Shown here: piece after piece, positions 21,001-24,000 of the stretch
How the letters are laid out: every line of letters starts with the position of its first letter
Position numbering within the stretch: position 1 is the first letter of the stretch
NCBI RefSeq assembly: GCF_030013595.1
Contig: NZ_CP122769.1
Strand: one strand, 5' to 3'
DNA length: 64,000 nt
Source: Escherichia coli
Lineage (GTDB): Bacteria > Pseudomonadota > Gammaproteobacteria > Enterobacterales > Enterobacteriaceae
Position numbers: made by a program

Positions 21001-24000
21001 GAGGGATAAAACCCATTGCGTAAGCAACAATATTACGTGAGTGAGTCCTAACGACAGTTAAAGTCTTGGCTCTATATTTAAGCAGCAAAAACATTTAACT
21101 GTCTTGGAGTTTATTTAACTTAAAAACTGTTATTGCAGCATAATTTTTCGAATCAAATTCATAGAATTTTCTGACTTTTCCAGTCAAATGATAACGTTCA
21201 CCCAATAAAATGTGATCCTGTTTATCGGCCGTTAAAGCGATCCCGTCATTTCTAACTTTACCAGTAAATGTAAAAAAATAACTCCCTTTACTTTTTGCGT
21301 ACGCGGCCCTGACTTCAGTAAATGTTAGTTCAATGCTTATGACCTGGCCGATATTGTAGCTATGTTTTAAAATTTCTTGTTCATTTTCCGGAGTTTCAGA
21401 CAACATCACATCAAAAGTTGTAAAGAAACAATCCAGCTGGCGTTCTGTCAAGAAACGGTTATTGTCTAATTGCGCCAATATACTATTAGAAAACTTAGTG
21501 TTAGCCTTTTTTGCTTTCTCAATAAGGACGTGGTTTCTGGATTTCCATGCTTCGAGTGTTGGGTTAACACGCAGTTCCGGAATGTTATCGAGAAAGGTAA
21601 TTGGCTCTAGTGCCACTAATTTTTCAATAATGGGTCCAACTGTTTGTACCCCATGACACTTTTCACATAAATCAGCCCCTTTGTGGCCTGTGCCCGCACA
21701 TTCGTTACATTCTCTTTCGATAGGTGCATAATAATTTCCATCTCCGTTAAGTGATACATTCACTGAGGCTGGTACCATATGACCATCAAGAGTAAAGAAA
21801 AGAGATTTCATTTTCGAAACACCTCCAAACGTGCCTCTACGATTGCTACAGCTTCTTTCACAGTTTTTTCATAGTGGTCATGCCCTTCAGGAAATTGATC
21901 AAAACGTTTACCGTGTTCTAACTCTTCCATGTTGCGTTTAAGGACTTCATGAGTTAGAAGCAAATCACTATAATTATCGATAAGAGTCAGCTTTATAGGT
22001 TTAATCACTCAACTAATCCTCGTTTTTAATATTCCTTAAGGAGATCTCGAATTTCCAGAAGCTCTTCTAATTTTGGTTTAGAAACAATGATTGCTGTATT
22101 TTCGTCGTTAAGTAAAGACAATAAAATATTTAGCTTTTCATCATTCAAGATTATTTGAACACCATCATTGGAAAATATTACATTATTACTATTAACATTT
22201 TTGAACAAGTGTGCACTATCTCTACCAAATTTTAGTTCTGTTTGAGTATTCGTTATAGATTCCGTATGTGTACTTTCCACAAGCTCAAGAAATTCAGATT
22301 TTAGCCGTTCTGTTTTCTTATGCGAGAGGCGCTTAATACCCAAAGTCTTACGAGTGACTGCCGAATTTTTCTTTTCTGGTCCGCCTTTATTTAAGGTGTC
22401 TGGTCCTGCTCCAGCTGCATTGTGTTCAGGTATGCCTACAATTTTGCTCGTTGTAGTCTCAATATTCTTAACGCCAGGTAAGAAACCTTCTATATGTTTT
22501 AAAACCATTTTGTGATCGTTGGAATATTTTAACATTATTTCAATGGCGAGCGTTTTTTTGATTAGATTTAGGCTAATCAAACGTTGAAGCTCTAATGGCA
22601 TATCAAGGATTTTTAGCATATTACGAATTGCGGTAGTTGATCGTTGATATCGCATTGCTAGTTCTTCAACCGAATACCCGAGACTAACAGCATGAGCTAA
22701 TGCATGAGCTTGCCCAACCGGATTTAGCCCATTGCTTCTGTTACCATCGAGGTTCTCAAGGTATTCTTCAATTTCGTTTTTATAATCGATTAGGATAACA
22801 GATAATTTTGGAATATTAGCACCTTCAGAAATTGCTAATTTTAAGCCATGAAAACGAGTATGACCTTGACGAACTAAATATTTACCTTTTCTTTTTACGA
22901 CCTTGATCATATCAACCTGCCTTCCTTCCTTAAAGGCTTGTTTGATTGACACAATCATCGACTTGACAGGTTCTTGTTCGTAACACAAATCTCCGATTAC
23001 CGCCTCTCGGGGATTAAATCCCTTTTCAATTTCAACTAGATTAGTATCCACTTCAATGACTGTATGTTTGCTGTTGTTCATATCTTCCTCCTGTTTACTA
23101 CATGATACATGAACCTCAAATTTGCCAAATAGGGCTGATACATCTAAAAGGTAAACTCAAAAAATTTGCTTAATAAAATTAAAATAAAAACTGTCTTGAA
23201 TAAAACAATGATAGTAGACCCTCGTTCATTTCCGTTTGCGATCTGTAGATATTGTTAAAGGAGCGCTATTCCTTGTTTTATATGGACTTATCATTGTTTT
23301 CAACAGGATAGATCAATTCTTTAGATCACTAAAGATCAATAGAGTTCAAGTAAAGATCACGGCATCTTTAACTCATTGATTATAGTGACTTTATGAAAGG
23401 ATCCGGCATTCGGATGCATGCGAAAAGCATTTGAATGAATAAGGAAGGCATTTACTGGAATGCTTATGGCATTTAGGTTAATGCGTAAAAAGCATTTGCA
23501 AGAATATGTTATAAACAGTTTGCCAAATGAAAATCTTATCACCGACGAGTTAAGTTAATGATTAAAAACAACGAGTTAATCCATCCTTTTGACGTAACCA
23601 GTAATGAATCAGGTAAGACTTATCAACTGACGCCTAACTCGTCCAAGTCGGTTCAGCCCGTGGCCCTGTTGAGATTGAGTGTATTTACCCCTGTCGGCAC
23701 AAAAGAAAACCGCGACCGAAACTTTGAAGTTGATGCCTCTGATGAGCTTTCGTGTATGGAAATTGCAAGATCGGAGGGTTATGACGACATCAAGATAACT
23801 GGTGTCAAACTATCTATGTCTACCGACTTTAAGTGCTGGCTCGGGATCATCATGGCTTTCAGTAAATATGGTTTTACTTCCGAGAAGATTACCCTGACTT
23901 TTAACGAGTTTGCGAAGATGTGTGGTATCAGTTCAACAAACATCAACAAACGAACTCGTGCGCGCTTTAAAGAGTCATTAATGAACCTTGCATCGGTAGT

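What the first reader, a model, noticed from the sequence alone, without database searches (positions are those of the whole stretch)
21095..23081. Second orphan ParB/KorB-like gene in a three-gene operon with a zinc-finger protein, divergent from the RepHI1B-like gene
A 351-aa ParB-like protein with no ParA partner is followed by a 66-aa ORF and a 238-aa protein with two CxxC motifs; the genes abut or overlap. Its position divergent from a rep gene and next to the GATC-rich origin suggests a regulatory (KorB-like) role. It is a candidate binder of the dispersed palindrome.
Basis: inference. Interest (0 to 1): 0.4.

Follow-up and report, generated by a model that had tools for sequence, protein, structure and literature searches.

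The report
Orphan ParB operon of IncHI plasmids
This is a real, conserved three-gene operon of the IncHI resistance-plasmid backbone, encoding a ParB/KorB-type DNA-binding protein with no ParA partner, a 66-residue protein and a zinc-ribbon/OB-fold protein of the single-stranded-DNA-binding type; its function is untested, published deletion data show plasmid stability does not need it, and it is probably not the main binder of the plasmid's dispersed 13-bp palindrome.

Summary
Three minus-strand genes (351, 66 and 238 aa) form a tight operon on an IncHI2 backbone and are orthologues of the uncharacterised R27 ORFs R0037-R0039.

- **Gene 1:** a ParB/KorB/Noc-class protein with a ParB N-domain (GFNPR and GHxR boxes) and a ParB HTH. 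It has no ParA partner or ParA-binding motif.
- **Gene 2:** a conserved small protein with an RFDH..GH motif.
- **Gene 3:** a four-cysteine zinc ribbon, a helical linker and an OB fold of the RPA/SSB type.

The triad is conserved in six deep lineages of H-type plasmids. It always lies between the pilin operon and a Dam/second-ParB/Ig-like block, usually beside an iteron origin whose initiator varies.

- The neighbouring Rep is RepHI1A-like (86% identity), not RepHI1B-like.
- The dispersed palindrome AAAAGTNACTTTT is real (26 exact copies in R27, mostly promoter-proximal). However, Klebsiella IncHI plasmids that lack this operon keep it, and the operon's own promoter has no copy.
- Deleting R0037-R0042 in R27 did not lower plasmid stability.

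Best reading: a non-partition accessory DNA-handling or regulatory module. The function remains unproven.

The parts
22026..23081 (-). Gene 1 (here called ParBL2; R27 R0037 orthologue): 351-aa orphan ParB/KorB/Noc-class protein
   Evidence: ORF. Pfam HTH_ParB 5e-6. phrog_1033 'ParB-like' 2e-25. A family profile hits ParB, Noc and KorB chains in the PDB. In the AF2 model residues 1-200 have pLDDT about 90. Best Foldseek match is KorB 8qa9, E 2e-8.
22782..23081 (-). ParB/Srx-type N-terminal domain (about residues 1-100). Box I GFNPR is at 23007-23021 and Box II GHTRFHG at 22845-22865.
   Evidence: G21 F22 N23 R25 G73 H74 R76 are invariant in 23 homologues. The consensus VrqGHCRtkA aligns to iaGERRLRA of H. 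pylori ParB 4umk.
22536..22727 (-). ParB-type helix-turn-helix DNA-binding domain (residues 119-182). The recognition helix is ..TAIRNMLKI..
   Evidence: Matched stretch in Pfam PF17762. The helix is invariant in IncHI2, IncHI1 and the distant element L006.
22029..22322 (-). Family-specific C-terminal domain (residues 254-351), reached through a disordered linker (residues 205-252)
   Evidence: AF2 secondary structure, with pLDDT 50-75 for the domain and below 50 for the linker. Conserved TRSSLGIKRLSHKKTERLKS and C-terminal blocks.
21808..22008 (-). Gene 2 (R27 R0038 orthologue): conserved 66-aa protein with a G-x-RFD-x4-GH motif
   Evidence: ORF. Present in all six lineages, with invariant G33 R35 F36 D37 G42 H43. 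The family is narrow and has no Pfam domain.
21095..21811 (-). Gene 3 (R27 R0039 orthologue): 238-aa zinc-ribbon + helical + OB-fold protein
   Evidence: ORF. AF2 mean pLDDT 81. Only 15 cluster representatives among 1.84 billion proteins.
21656..21709 (-). Four-cysteine zinc knuckle pair (C35xxC38 ... C49xxC52), DnaJ-like CxxCxGxG
   Evidence: Weak PF00684 match, 20.1 bits against a cut-off of 32.7. C35, C38 and C49 are nearly invariant; C52 is not among the columns reported as at least 90% conserved and is Y in P0038.
21110..21343 (-). C-terminal OB fold (residues 157-234) of the nucleic-acid-binding type
23087..23128 (-). Putative operon promoter and ribosome-binding site: -35 TTGGCA (23123-23128), 15-nt spacer, -10 TATCAT (23102-23107), SD AGGAGG (23087-23092)
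   Evidence: Read from the sequence. This block is the only conserved part of the ParBL2-proximal half of the intergenic region between IncHI2 and R27. The simple promoter scan did not find it because of the 15-nt spacer. Inference only.
20006..20839 (-). Context: downstream conserved gene (R27 R0040 orthologue, 277 aa), probably a separate transcription unit. Holds a palindrome copy at 20759-20771 inside the conserved RKVTFP codons.
   Evidence: A 255-bp gap follows gene 3. Conserved in all lineages. In R27 it is derepressed 18.6-fold in the htdA mutant, against 4-7-fold for R0037-39. No significant family match.
23558..24433 (+). Context: divergent RepHI1A-type initiator
   Evidence: Rep3_N, Rep3_C and TrfA hits. 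86% identity to R27 R0036. R0036 is named repHIA in PMC7366339.
23240..23506 (.). Context: origin-like region, with a GATC cluster (23240-23403) and upstream iterons (23420-23505). More iterons lie at 24570-25160.
   Evidence: This block is strongly conserved with R27.
24543..24555 (.). Context: nearest exact copy of the dispersed palindrome AAAAGTAACTTTT on the Rep side. The next copy is at 25328-25340, upstream of trhA.
   Evidence: Copies at syntenic positions in R27.
17653..18816 (-). Context: paralogous orphan ParB-like gene (ParBL1; R27 R0042 orthologue). A conserved variant palindrome sits at 18895-18907, 79 bp upstream.
   Evidence: R0042 is among the most highly expressed R27 genes.

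Best explanation
The locus is a conserved backbone operon of H-type (MOBH, MPF-F; IncHI) conjugative plasmids, not a partition locus.

Gene 1 encodes an orphan ParB-class protein. It has a ParB/Srx nucleotide-binding-type N-domain, a ParB HTH and its own C-terminal domain. It most likely binds a specific site on plasmid DNA as a dimer and may close into a nucleotide-gated clamp, as KorB, Noc, VirB and BisD do.

Genes 2 and 3 are its fixed partners: a 66-residue protein and a zinc-ribbon/OB-fold protein that most likely binds single-stranded nucleic acid.

The most likely job is accessory handling or regulation of plasmid DNA near the iteron origin beside the pilin operon. That could be replication or establishment after transfer, or local control. 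The operon is expressed at low level and rises when the transfer regulon is derepressed.

**Shown:** the genes, their conservation, folds, synteny, lack of a ParA, and published expression and deletion data for the R27 orthologues.

**Inferred:** DNA binding, nucleotide switching, ssDNA binding, complex formation and the biological role.
For: **Fold and motifs of gene 1.** Pfam HTH_ParB passes its cut-off. A family profile aligns to ParB, Noc and KorB chains, with GHxR on the GERR box. Box I and Box II are invariant. The AF2 model is confident over residues 1-200, and its best structural match is KorB.

**Gene 3.** The model has pLDDT 81. The OB fold matches RPA, SSB, PriB and the RecG wedge, and phage proteins that include named ssDNA-binding proteins. 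The zinc cysteines are conserved.

**The triad.** Spacing is tight. The same order of ParBL2, small gene and ZnF occurs in IncHI2, IncHI1, another IncHI plasmid and four metagenomic lineages down to 26% identity.

**Not partition.** ParAB and ParMR lie elsewhere in the window. R27 deletion Del1 (40,355-46,955, removing R0037-R0042) was obtained, and only Del16 reduced stability (PMC4853401).

**Origin linkage.** Iterons plus an initiator lie between trhA and the operon in five of six lineages with known upstream context, and the initiators and iteron sequences are unrelated between groups. Klebsiella IncHI plasmids lack both the origin and the triad at this position.

**Expression.** R0037, R0038 and R0039 read 100, 48 and 166 units at 25 C. 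They rise 4.2-, 7.0- and 5.0-fold in the htdA (transfer-derepressed) mutant at 25 C only (PMC7366339 Tables S3/S4).
Against: - There is no direct evidence of DNA, CTP or ssDNA binding for any of the three proteins.
- Box III of the ParB nucleotide pocket is divergent (LDGNR where canonical ParB has ENxQR), so nucleotide switching is uncertain.
- Lineage L018 has the triad directly divergent from trhA with no origin between them.
- R27 with the whole block deleted replicates and is stable, so any replication role is accessory or redundant with the other replicons.
- The htdA mutation derepresses 139 of 181 expressed R27 genes, so co-regulation with transfer is not specific.
- No conserved candidate binding site other than the dispersed palindrome was found in or near the operon.
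Confidence: 0.4

Rival explanations
1. KorB-like global regulator. ParBL2 binds the dispersed palindrome AAAAGTNACTTTT at many promoters and represses or activates plasmid genes. It might act as a sliding clamp locked by a partner, with the 66-aa protein in the role of KorA or TrbA.
For: - The palindrome is real and operator-like. The window has 9 exact copies. R27 has 26 exact copies and 46 core copies against 0.25 expected. In R27, 14 of 26 are intergenic against 20% intergenic DNA, p = 1.7e-4, mostly 50-300 bp upstream of start codons.
- It is conserved at syntenic positions in all lineages.
- It is the only palindrome shared by the operon regions of six lineages.
- The ParBL2 recognition helix TAIRNxLKI is invariant, as expected for a protein that reads an invariant site, whereas the ParBL1 helix varies.
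- The best structural match is KorB.
- In lineages without RepHI1A, a copy lies 100-230 bp upstream of the first gene of the operon.
Against: - Klebsiella IncHI plasmids have no ParBL2 or ZnF gene but have the densest palindrome set: 18 core copies in 40 kb, five of them upstream of trhA.
- No copy within two mismatches lies in the IncHI2 operon promoter region, and none within one mismatch in R27's.
- R0037 expression is near background for a protein that would have to fill about 50 sites per plasmid copy. R0042 (ParBL1) is about 60-fold higher and always has a copy in its own promoter.
- No KorB-specific Pfam domain was found.
- Deleting both ParB-like genes left R27 viable and stable.
Confidence: 0.2
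2. A transfer-specific function. The triad acts during conjugation in one of two ways. It could coat or process the transferred single strand and help establishment in the recipient. Or it could act as a VirB/BisD-like activator or anti-silencer of the adjacent AT-rich tra and Ig-like genes.
For: - The operon always sits beside the pilin operon and the Dam/ParBL1/Ig-like block needed for IncHI mating (PMC6764697).
- It is derepressed 4-7-fold in the htdA mutant at the permissive temperature only.
- The OB fold is of the ssDNA-binding type.
- The region is AT-rich, at 35-38% GC.
- Precedents exist for orphan ParB-type switches acting in transfer competence or establishment: VirB (PMC10770331), and BisD and HerB (PMC13370423).
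Against: - The operon is not near oriT or the leading region, which in R27 lies around 108 kb.
- It is not thermoregulated in wild-type R27, unlike the core tra genes.
- Klebsiella IncHI plasmids typed as conjugative lack it.
- No conjugation phenotype has been reported.
Confidence: 0.2
3. A third, ParA-less partition or stability system, in which ParBL2 binds a local centromere near the origin.
For: ParB-family fold. The position next to a replicon resembles F sop and P1 par (from established knowledge of those plasmids).
Against: - No ParA, and no ParA-stimulating LG[KR]GL motif in the 20 residues before Box I.
- No local array of palindromic repeats other than the Rep iterons.
- Two complete partition systems already exist in the window.
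- The R27 deletion that covers the operon did not reduce stability.
Confidence: 0.05
4. A defence, anti-defence or selfish cassette linked to the neighbouring orphan methyltransferases (Dam and the DUF4942 methylase).
For: ParB-fold proteins are often fused to or adjacent to methyltransferases on mobile elements (bioRxiv 10.1101/2025.10.10.680097). Dam and a DUF4942 methyltransferase flank the block.
Against: None of the three proteins matches a PADLOC model. Gene 1 has an HTH and no nuclease or methylase domain. The operon is separate from both methylase genes.
Confidence: 0.05

Closest known systems
KorB of IncP-1 plasmid RK2 (ParB-CTPase sliding clamp and global repressor; PMC11790492)
   Same: ParB N-domain plus HTH architecture. 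KorB is the best structural match (8qa9, E 2e-8, TM 0.62 on the target). Both are plasmid-encoded. The host plasmid carries a dispersed odd-centred 13-bp palindrome at many promoters, like the KorB operator.
   Different: About 20% identity and no KorB or KorB_C Pfam domain. No IncC/ParA or KorA partner, and no operator in its own promoter in IncHI1/2. Binding to the palindrome is untested and is not required for the palindrome's persistence. Deleting it is tolerated.
VirB of Shigella pINV, BisD of ICEclc and HerB/YfjB of F-like plasmids (orphan ParB-type CTP switches that regulate transcription; PMC10770331, PMC13370423)
   Same: ParB-fold proteins without ParA on mobile elements, with non-segregation roles. 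The setting is an AT-rich, H-NS-regulated plasmid.
   Different: No detectable specific sequence relationship. The C-terminal domain and the partner genes differ. ParBL2 sits in neither a virulence regulon nor the leading region. The function is untested.
Noc and chromosomal ParB (Spo0J)
   Same: These give the strongest sequence-profile matches (E 7e-10 to 9e-9). Box I and Box II are shared.
   Different: Below the TIGR00180 and Noc cut-offs. Box III is divergent. No membrane-targeting helix or ParA-binding motif is evident. The C-terminal domain differs.
R27 ORFs R0037, R0038 and R0039 (IncHI1)
   Same: Direct orthologues (58%, 50% and 53% identity) in identical synteny.
   Different: None in kind. 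These ORFs are listed in R27 papers only as unknown or 'zinc-finger protein', with no functional study found.
OB-fold ssDNA-binding proteins with zinc modules (archaeal/eukaryotic RPA, phage SSBs, baculovirus LEF-3, PriB)
   Different: No sequence-family membership: no SSB or RPA Pfam hit. The zinc ribbon is N-terminal and separated from the OB fold by a helical domain. ssDNA binding is untested.

Membership tests
ParB/Srx ('ParB-CTPase fold') superfamily, ParB/KorB/Noc class | N-terminal ParB/Srx domain with Box I (..NPR) and Box II (GxxRxxA) | tested here: met
   GFNPR (residues 21-25) and G73-H-x-R76 are invariant in 23 homologues. A79 is conserved in over 90% of them, although it is G in this protein. 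The box aligns to GERRLRA of 4umk.
ParB/Srx ('ParB-CTPase fold') superfamily, ParB/KorB/Noc class | Box III (ENxQR) for Mg2+ and phosphate contact and hydrolysis | tested here: inconclusive
   The aligned segment reads LENLDGNR. HMMER aligns the segment ldgNrsng of the family consensus (LDGNRSNG in this protein) to ienIqred of 4umk. Only N114 is invariant family-wide.
ParB/Srx ('ParB-CTPase fold') superfamily, ParB/KorB/Noc class | ParB-type HTH DNA-binding domain | tested here: met
   PF17762 scores 26.9 bits against a cut-off of 22.6, over residues 119-182.
ParB/Srx ('ParB-CTPase fold') superfamily, ParB/KorB/Noc class | Three-dimensional similarity of the NTD+DBD to solved ParB-family structures | tested here: met
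   Foldseek probability 1.00 to KorB, Noc, ParB-CTPgammaS and Spo0J, E 2e-8 to 1e-4, using a model with pLDDT about 90 over residues 1-200.
ParB/Srx ('ParB-CTPase fold') superfamily, ParB/KorB/Noc class | CTP (or other NTP) binding and clamp closure | not testable with these tools
   Needs biochemistry, such as DRaCALA or ITC with an R76A control.
Canonical partition ParB (TIGR00180 parB_part; type I par) | Score above the curated family cut-off | tested here: not met
   33.9 bits against a cut-off of 58.45.
Canonical partition ParB (TIGR00180 parB_part; type I par) | Adjacent ParA gene and an N-terminal ParA-stimulating motif (LG[KR]GL) | tested here: not met
   The neighbours are a Rep and a 66-aa gene. 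The 20 residues before Box I (MNNSKHTVIEVDTNLVEIEK) contain no such motif.
Canonical partition ParB (TIGR00180 parB_part; type I par) | Needed for stable inheritance | tested here: not met
   From the literature: R27 Del1, which removes R0037-R0042, showed no significant stability loss (PMC4853401). The other par systems were still present.
KorB (IncP global regulator) | KorB-specific domains (Pfam KorB, KorB_C) | tested here: not met
   HTH_ParB was the only Pfam hit at E <= 0.01.
KorB (IncP global regulator) | Binds a dispersed palindromic operator, including one at its own operon promoter | tested here: inconclusive
   A dispersed palindrome exists. No copy within two mismatches lies in the IncHI2 operon promoter region, and none within one mismatch in R27's. 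The palindrome persists in plasmids that lack the gene. Binding itself is not testable here.
DnaJ-type zinc finger (PF00684 DnaJ_CXXCXGXG) | Score above the gathering cut-off, with two CxxCxGxG repeat pairs | tested here: not met
   20.1 bits against a cut-off of 32.7, with one matched stretch (residues 31-54). C35, C38 and C49 are nearly invariant, while C52 is not among the columns at least 90% conserved and is Y in P0038. It is therefore a zinc-ribbon-like module, not a DnaJ family member.
OB-fold single-stranded-nucleic-acid-binding proteins (RPA/SSB/PriB class) | OB-fold topology similar to known ssDNA-binding OB domains | tested here: met
OB-fold single-stranded-nucleic-acid-binding proteins (RPA/SSB/PriB class) | Sequence-family membership and demonstrated ssDNA binding | tested here: not met
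   No SSB, RPA or tRNA_anti Pfam or NCBIfam hit. Binding is not testable here.

The most novel reading that the evidence does not exclude
IncHI plasmids may run a KorB-like, plasmid-wide control network that has not been described. Its operator would be the 13-bp palindrome AAAAGTNACTTTT, with about 50 copies per plasmid, mostly promoter-proximal and conserved across deeply diverged H-type plasmids. One or both orphan ParB-fold proteins would read it. ParBL2, with its 66-aa and zinc/OB-fold partners, would link this network to single-stranded DNA made at the origin or during transfer. That would be a ParB-type switch with an ssDNA-sensing partner.
Probability: 0.15. Interest if true: 0.75.

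Novelty: new variant of a known kind. Interest (0 to 1): 0.4.

Why it matters
IncHI1 and IncHI2 plasmids carry multidrug resistance in typhoid Salmonella, and mcr-1, mcr-9 and carbapenemase genes in Enterobacterales. About two thirds of their backbone genes have no known function.

Orphan ParB-fold nucleotide switches have recently been found to regulate plasmids and ICEs (KorB, VirB, BisD, HerB). This operon adds a conserved, untested member with an unusual fixed partner set: a 66-aa protein and a zinc-ribbon/OB-fold protein.

The work also defines a plasmid-wide, deeply conserved operator-like palindrome. That makes one question directly testable: what coordinates gene expression across IncHI plasmids? 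A few EMSA, ChIP-seq and deletion experiments on R0037, R0042 and HtdA/TrhR/TrhY would address it.

Tried and rejected
- **Families:** PADLOC gave no hit for the three proteins. NCBIfam gave only sub-threshold ParB/Noc and anti-TRAP/DnaJ zinc-finger hits. Rfam and tRNA scans of the whole window found nothing.
- **Promoters and terminators:** the simple scan was no better than shuffles and missed the 15-nt-spacer promoter.
- **A ParBL2-specific site:** near-palindromes shared by the operon regions of six lineages yielded only the dispersed palindrome.
- **Is the downstream R0040-like protein a Rep relative?** hhalign probability was 1.9%, and PDB and Pfam profile searches found nothing significant. 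Rejected as evidence.
- **Do the three unknown genes at the same position in the Klebsiella plasmid hide a diverged ParBL2?** hhalign probability was 0.1%. Rejected.
- **Are HtdA, TrhR and TrhY recognisable DNA binders?** No Pfam hits, so they stay open as candidates for the palindrome. HtdA conservation was not discriminating.
- **Tools:** the afdb50 fold library was unavailable.
- **Literature:** searches for R0037/R0039 and for the palindrome sequence found no relevant study in the held library.
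Full report
**Identity of the window**

The region is 100% identical to hundreds of IncHI2 plasmids from Escherichia, Salmonella and Enterobacter, for example pEGY1-MCR-1 and pMCR_915_C1. It covers the repHI2 replicon, two Ig-like genes, a block of methyltransferase and ParB-like genes, a second replicon, and the Tra2 transfer region with ParAB and ParMR.

**Check of the observation**

- The three minus-strand ORFs are exactly where stated, and RefSeq annotates the same CDS.
- Gene 1 ends 17 bp before the GTG start of gene 2. Genes 2 and 3 overlap in ATGA.
- Gene 1 passes Pfam HTH_ParB. Gene 3 has C35xxC38 and C49xxC52, with a sub-threshold DnaJ zinc-finger match.
- The divergent gene is a Rep_3-type initiator flanked by 17-21-bp iterons on both sides. 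Six GATC sites lie within 160 bp between the iterons and the operon.
- This Rep-proximal half of the intergenic region is strongly conserved with R27. The operon-proximal half is not, apart from a -35/-10/SD block just before the start codon.
- The Rep is 86% identical to R27 R0036 and 36% identical to R27's other RepB-family initiator. R0036 is called repHIA in the R27 literature.

**Gene 1 (ParBL2)**

The family is narrow: 30 clusters in the word-indexed search, down to 43% identity for full-length orthologues.

Its alignment shows invariant GFNPR and G-H-x-R, the latter followed by A in over 90% of members. The HTH is highly conserved (YQRSxTAIRNxLKILDMP), and there are conserved C-terminal blocks.

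A profile of the family matches solved ParB, Noc, Spo0J and KorB chains (E 7e-10 to 2e-3). GHCR falls on the GERR box of H. pylori ParB. The ENxQR box is replaced by LDGNR.

The AlphaFold model is confident for residues 1-200 and weak for the linker and C-terminal domain. Foldseek puts KorB (8qa9) first, followed by Noc and CTP-bound ParB structures.

The protein also matches phage family phrog_1033. It fails the curated ParB partition model.

Only 20 residues precede Box I, and they contain no ParA-stimulating motif. The only ParA in the window belongs to a P1-type ParB 17 kb away.

Gene 1 is therefore a genuine orphan member of the ParB/KorB/Noc class. Whether it binds CTP cannot be decided here.

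**Genes 2 and 3**

The 66-aa protein is conserved in every lineage, with an invariant G-x-RFD-x4-GH motif. Its family is small and has no Pfam annotation.

The 238-aa protein belongs to a tiny family: 15 representatives among 1.84 billion proteins. Its model (pLDDT 81) has three parts:
- an N-terminal beta/zinc-ribbon module;
- a four-helix middle domain;
- a C-terminal five-stranded barrel.

The most economical reading is a zinc-containing protein that binds single-stranded nucleic acid.

**Conservation and context**

The order is the same in every lineage examined: ParBL2, small gene, ZnF gene, R0040-like gene, then a divergent Dam, then ParBL1 (plus a DUF4942 methylase in some), then a small gene and an Ig-like gene. 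This holds in IncHI1 R27 (R0037-R0045), another IncHI plasmid and four metagenomic lineages whose ZnF proteins are 26-37% identical.

The block always abuts the pilin operon (trhA-L-E-K-B). What lies between trhA and ParBL2 varies:
- RepHI1A with its iterons in IncHI1 and IncHI2.
- An unrelated 520-548-aa gene, co-directional with ParBL2 and preceded by dense arrays of different repeats, in three lineages. The repeats are GACGGACAYTTA at 21- or 41-bp spacing, or ATAGGGAT.TTTA, and one array includes a GATC cluster.
- Nothing in one lineage, where the intergenic region is 242 bp.

The operon is therefore not tied to RepHI1A. It usually sits next to an iteron origin whose initiator has been exchanged.

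Klebsiella pNDM-MAR-type IncHI plasmids lack the origin, ParBL2 and the ZnF gene at this position. They keep a ParBL1 orthologue.

**Published data on the R27 orthologues**

In the R27 microarray study, R0037, R0038 and R0039 are expressed at or near the detection threshold (100, 48 and 166 units at 25 C) and are not thermoregulated. In the transfer-derepressed htdA mutant at 25 C they rise 4.2-, 7.0- and 5.0-fold. R0040 rises 18.6-fold and dam 7.8-fold.

R0042 (ParBL1) is one of the most abundant transcripts, at 6132 units rising to 20561 (PMC7366339, Tables S3/S4). The htdA effect is plasmid-wide (139 of 181 genes), so it is weak evidence for a specific link.

In the R27 deletion scan, Del1 (40,355-46,955) removed R0037 to R0042. 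The deletion was obtained, and only Del16 markedly reduced stability (PMC4853401). The whole block, including both orphan ParB genes, is thus dispensable for replication and stable inheritance in E. coli. That argues against a partition role and against an essential repressor role.

**The dispersed palindrome**

AAAAGTNACTTTT occurs 9 times exactly and 7 times with one mismatch in the window, against 0.67 expected. In complete R27:
- there are 26 exact copies and 24 one-mismatch copies;
- the 11-bp core occurs 46 times against 0.25 in shuffles;
- 14 of the 26 exact copies are intergenic although only 20% of R27 is (p = 1.7e-4);
- most of those lie 50-300 bp upstream of a start codon, including trhA, htdT, the oriT-side operons, the Ig-like gene and many unknown genes.

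Copies occupy syntenic positions in IncHI2 and IncHI1. The core is present in every distant lineage. I found no mention of the sequence in the held literature. It looks like the operator of a plasmid-wide regulator.

**Who binds the palindrome**

*For ParBL2:*
- Its recognition helix is invariant across lineages that share the invariant palindrome.
- No other shared palindrome exists near the operon.

*Against ParBL2:*
- The Klebsiella plasmids without ParBL2 have 18 core copies in 40 kb.
- The IncHI1 and IncHI2 operon promoters lack a copy.
- Its transcript is scarce.

*For ParBL1:*
- It is present wherever the palindrome is.
- It always has a copy 44-130 bp upstream of its start, 369 bp in one lineage.
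- It is very highly expressed.

*Against ParBL1:* its HTH helix varies between lineages.

HtdA, TrhR and TrhY have no recognisable DNA-binding domain but remain candidates, given the plasmid-wide htdA phenotype. My estimate is about 0.25 that ParBL2 binds the palindrome at all, and about 0.15-0.2 that it is the main reader.

**Verdict**

The regulatory, palindrome-binding interpretation is possible but not favoured.

The best-supported description is a conserved, non-partition, non-essential accessory operon. It pairs an orphan ParB-type DNA-binding (possibly nucleotide-gated) protein with a small partner and a zinc/OB-fold ssDNA-binding-type protein. It is positioned at the origin/Tra2 junction of H-type plasmids.

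This is a new variant of a known kind, of moderate interest. The plasmid-wide palindrome noticed alongside it is the more striking lead.

Noticed in passing
window 13868, 13933, 20759, 24543, 25328, 30689, 47648, 47842, 57993 (13 bp each); one-mismatch copies at 4859, 7083, 18895, 28380, 28630, 42607, 51734: The dispersed 13-bp palindrome AAAAGTNACTTTT is far above chance: 16 copies at one mismatch or fewer, against 0.67 expected. Complete R27 has 26 exact copies and 46 core copies against 0.25 expected. In R27 they are enriched in intergenic DNA (p = 1.7e-4), mostly 50-300 bp upstream of genes. The palindrome is conserved at syntenic sites and in all deep H-type lineages, including Klebsiella IncHI plasmids. 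I found no description of it in the held literature. It looks like the operator of a plasmid-wide regulator.
   Followed up: yes
window 17653-18816 (-), with site at 18895-18907: The first orphan ParB-like gene (ParBL1, R27 R0042) is 19-25% identical to ParBL2. It occurs in every lineage that has the palindrome and always has a palindrome copy in its promoter region. In R27 it is one of the most highly expressed genes. It is at least as good a candidate for the palindrome binder, although its HTH helix varies between lineages.
   Followed up: partly
L015 4480-5704; L016 4006-5679; L006 4009-4146: Three metagenomic H-type elements replace RepHI1A with an unannotated 520-548-aa gene preceded by dense repeat arrays (GACGGACAYTTA, 13 or more copies at 21/41-bp spacing, or ATAGGGAT.TTTA). 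One also has a GATC cluster. This may be a new initiator/iteron replicon. The protein has no Pfam match.
   Followed up: partly
L014 (IncC plasmid p3347558_1) 245, 3829, 4288, 9603, 12939, 23983, 27398: IncC plasmids carry a distant ParB-like homologue but lack the IncHI palindrome. Instead they have seven copies of a different parS-like 14-bp palindrome, TTTCACATGTGAAA, six of them extending to 16 bp (CTTTCACATGTGAAAG). All are in short intergenic gaps just upstream of genes, including parA. That suggests an analogous dispersed operator or centromere set.
   Followed up: no
L013 (Klebsiella pKpn14-1) 25063-29916: An array of about 15 copies of AACAACnnnGTTGTT surrounds the ParA/ParB genes. 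It is presumably the centromere of the true partition system, and it differs from the dispersed palindrome.
   Followed up: no
window 20006-20839 (-): The R0040-like 277-aa protein downstream of the operon is conserved in all lineages. It has weak hints of a C-terminal winged helix. One palindrome copy lies inside its conserved RKVTFP codons. It is the gene in this block most strongly derepressed in the R27 htdA mutant (18.6-fold).
   Followed up: partly
window 47858-48412 (+): HtdK gives a weak, just sub-threshold Pfam match to the Whirly ssDNA-binding fold (E 1e-4, 22.4 bits against a cut-off of 23).
   Followed up: no
window 20001-24000 and 35193-39530: The operon and origin region are among the most AT-rich parts of the window (35-38% GC). 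By contrast, a 4.3-kb stretch between trhC and parA has no annotated gene in the reference plasmid and a higher GC content (about 49%).
   Followed up: no
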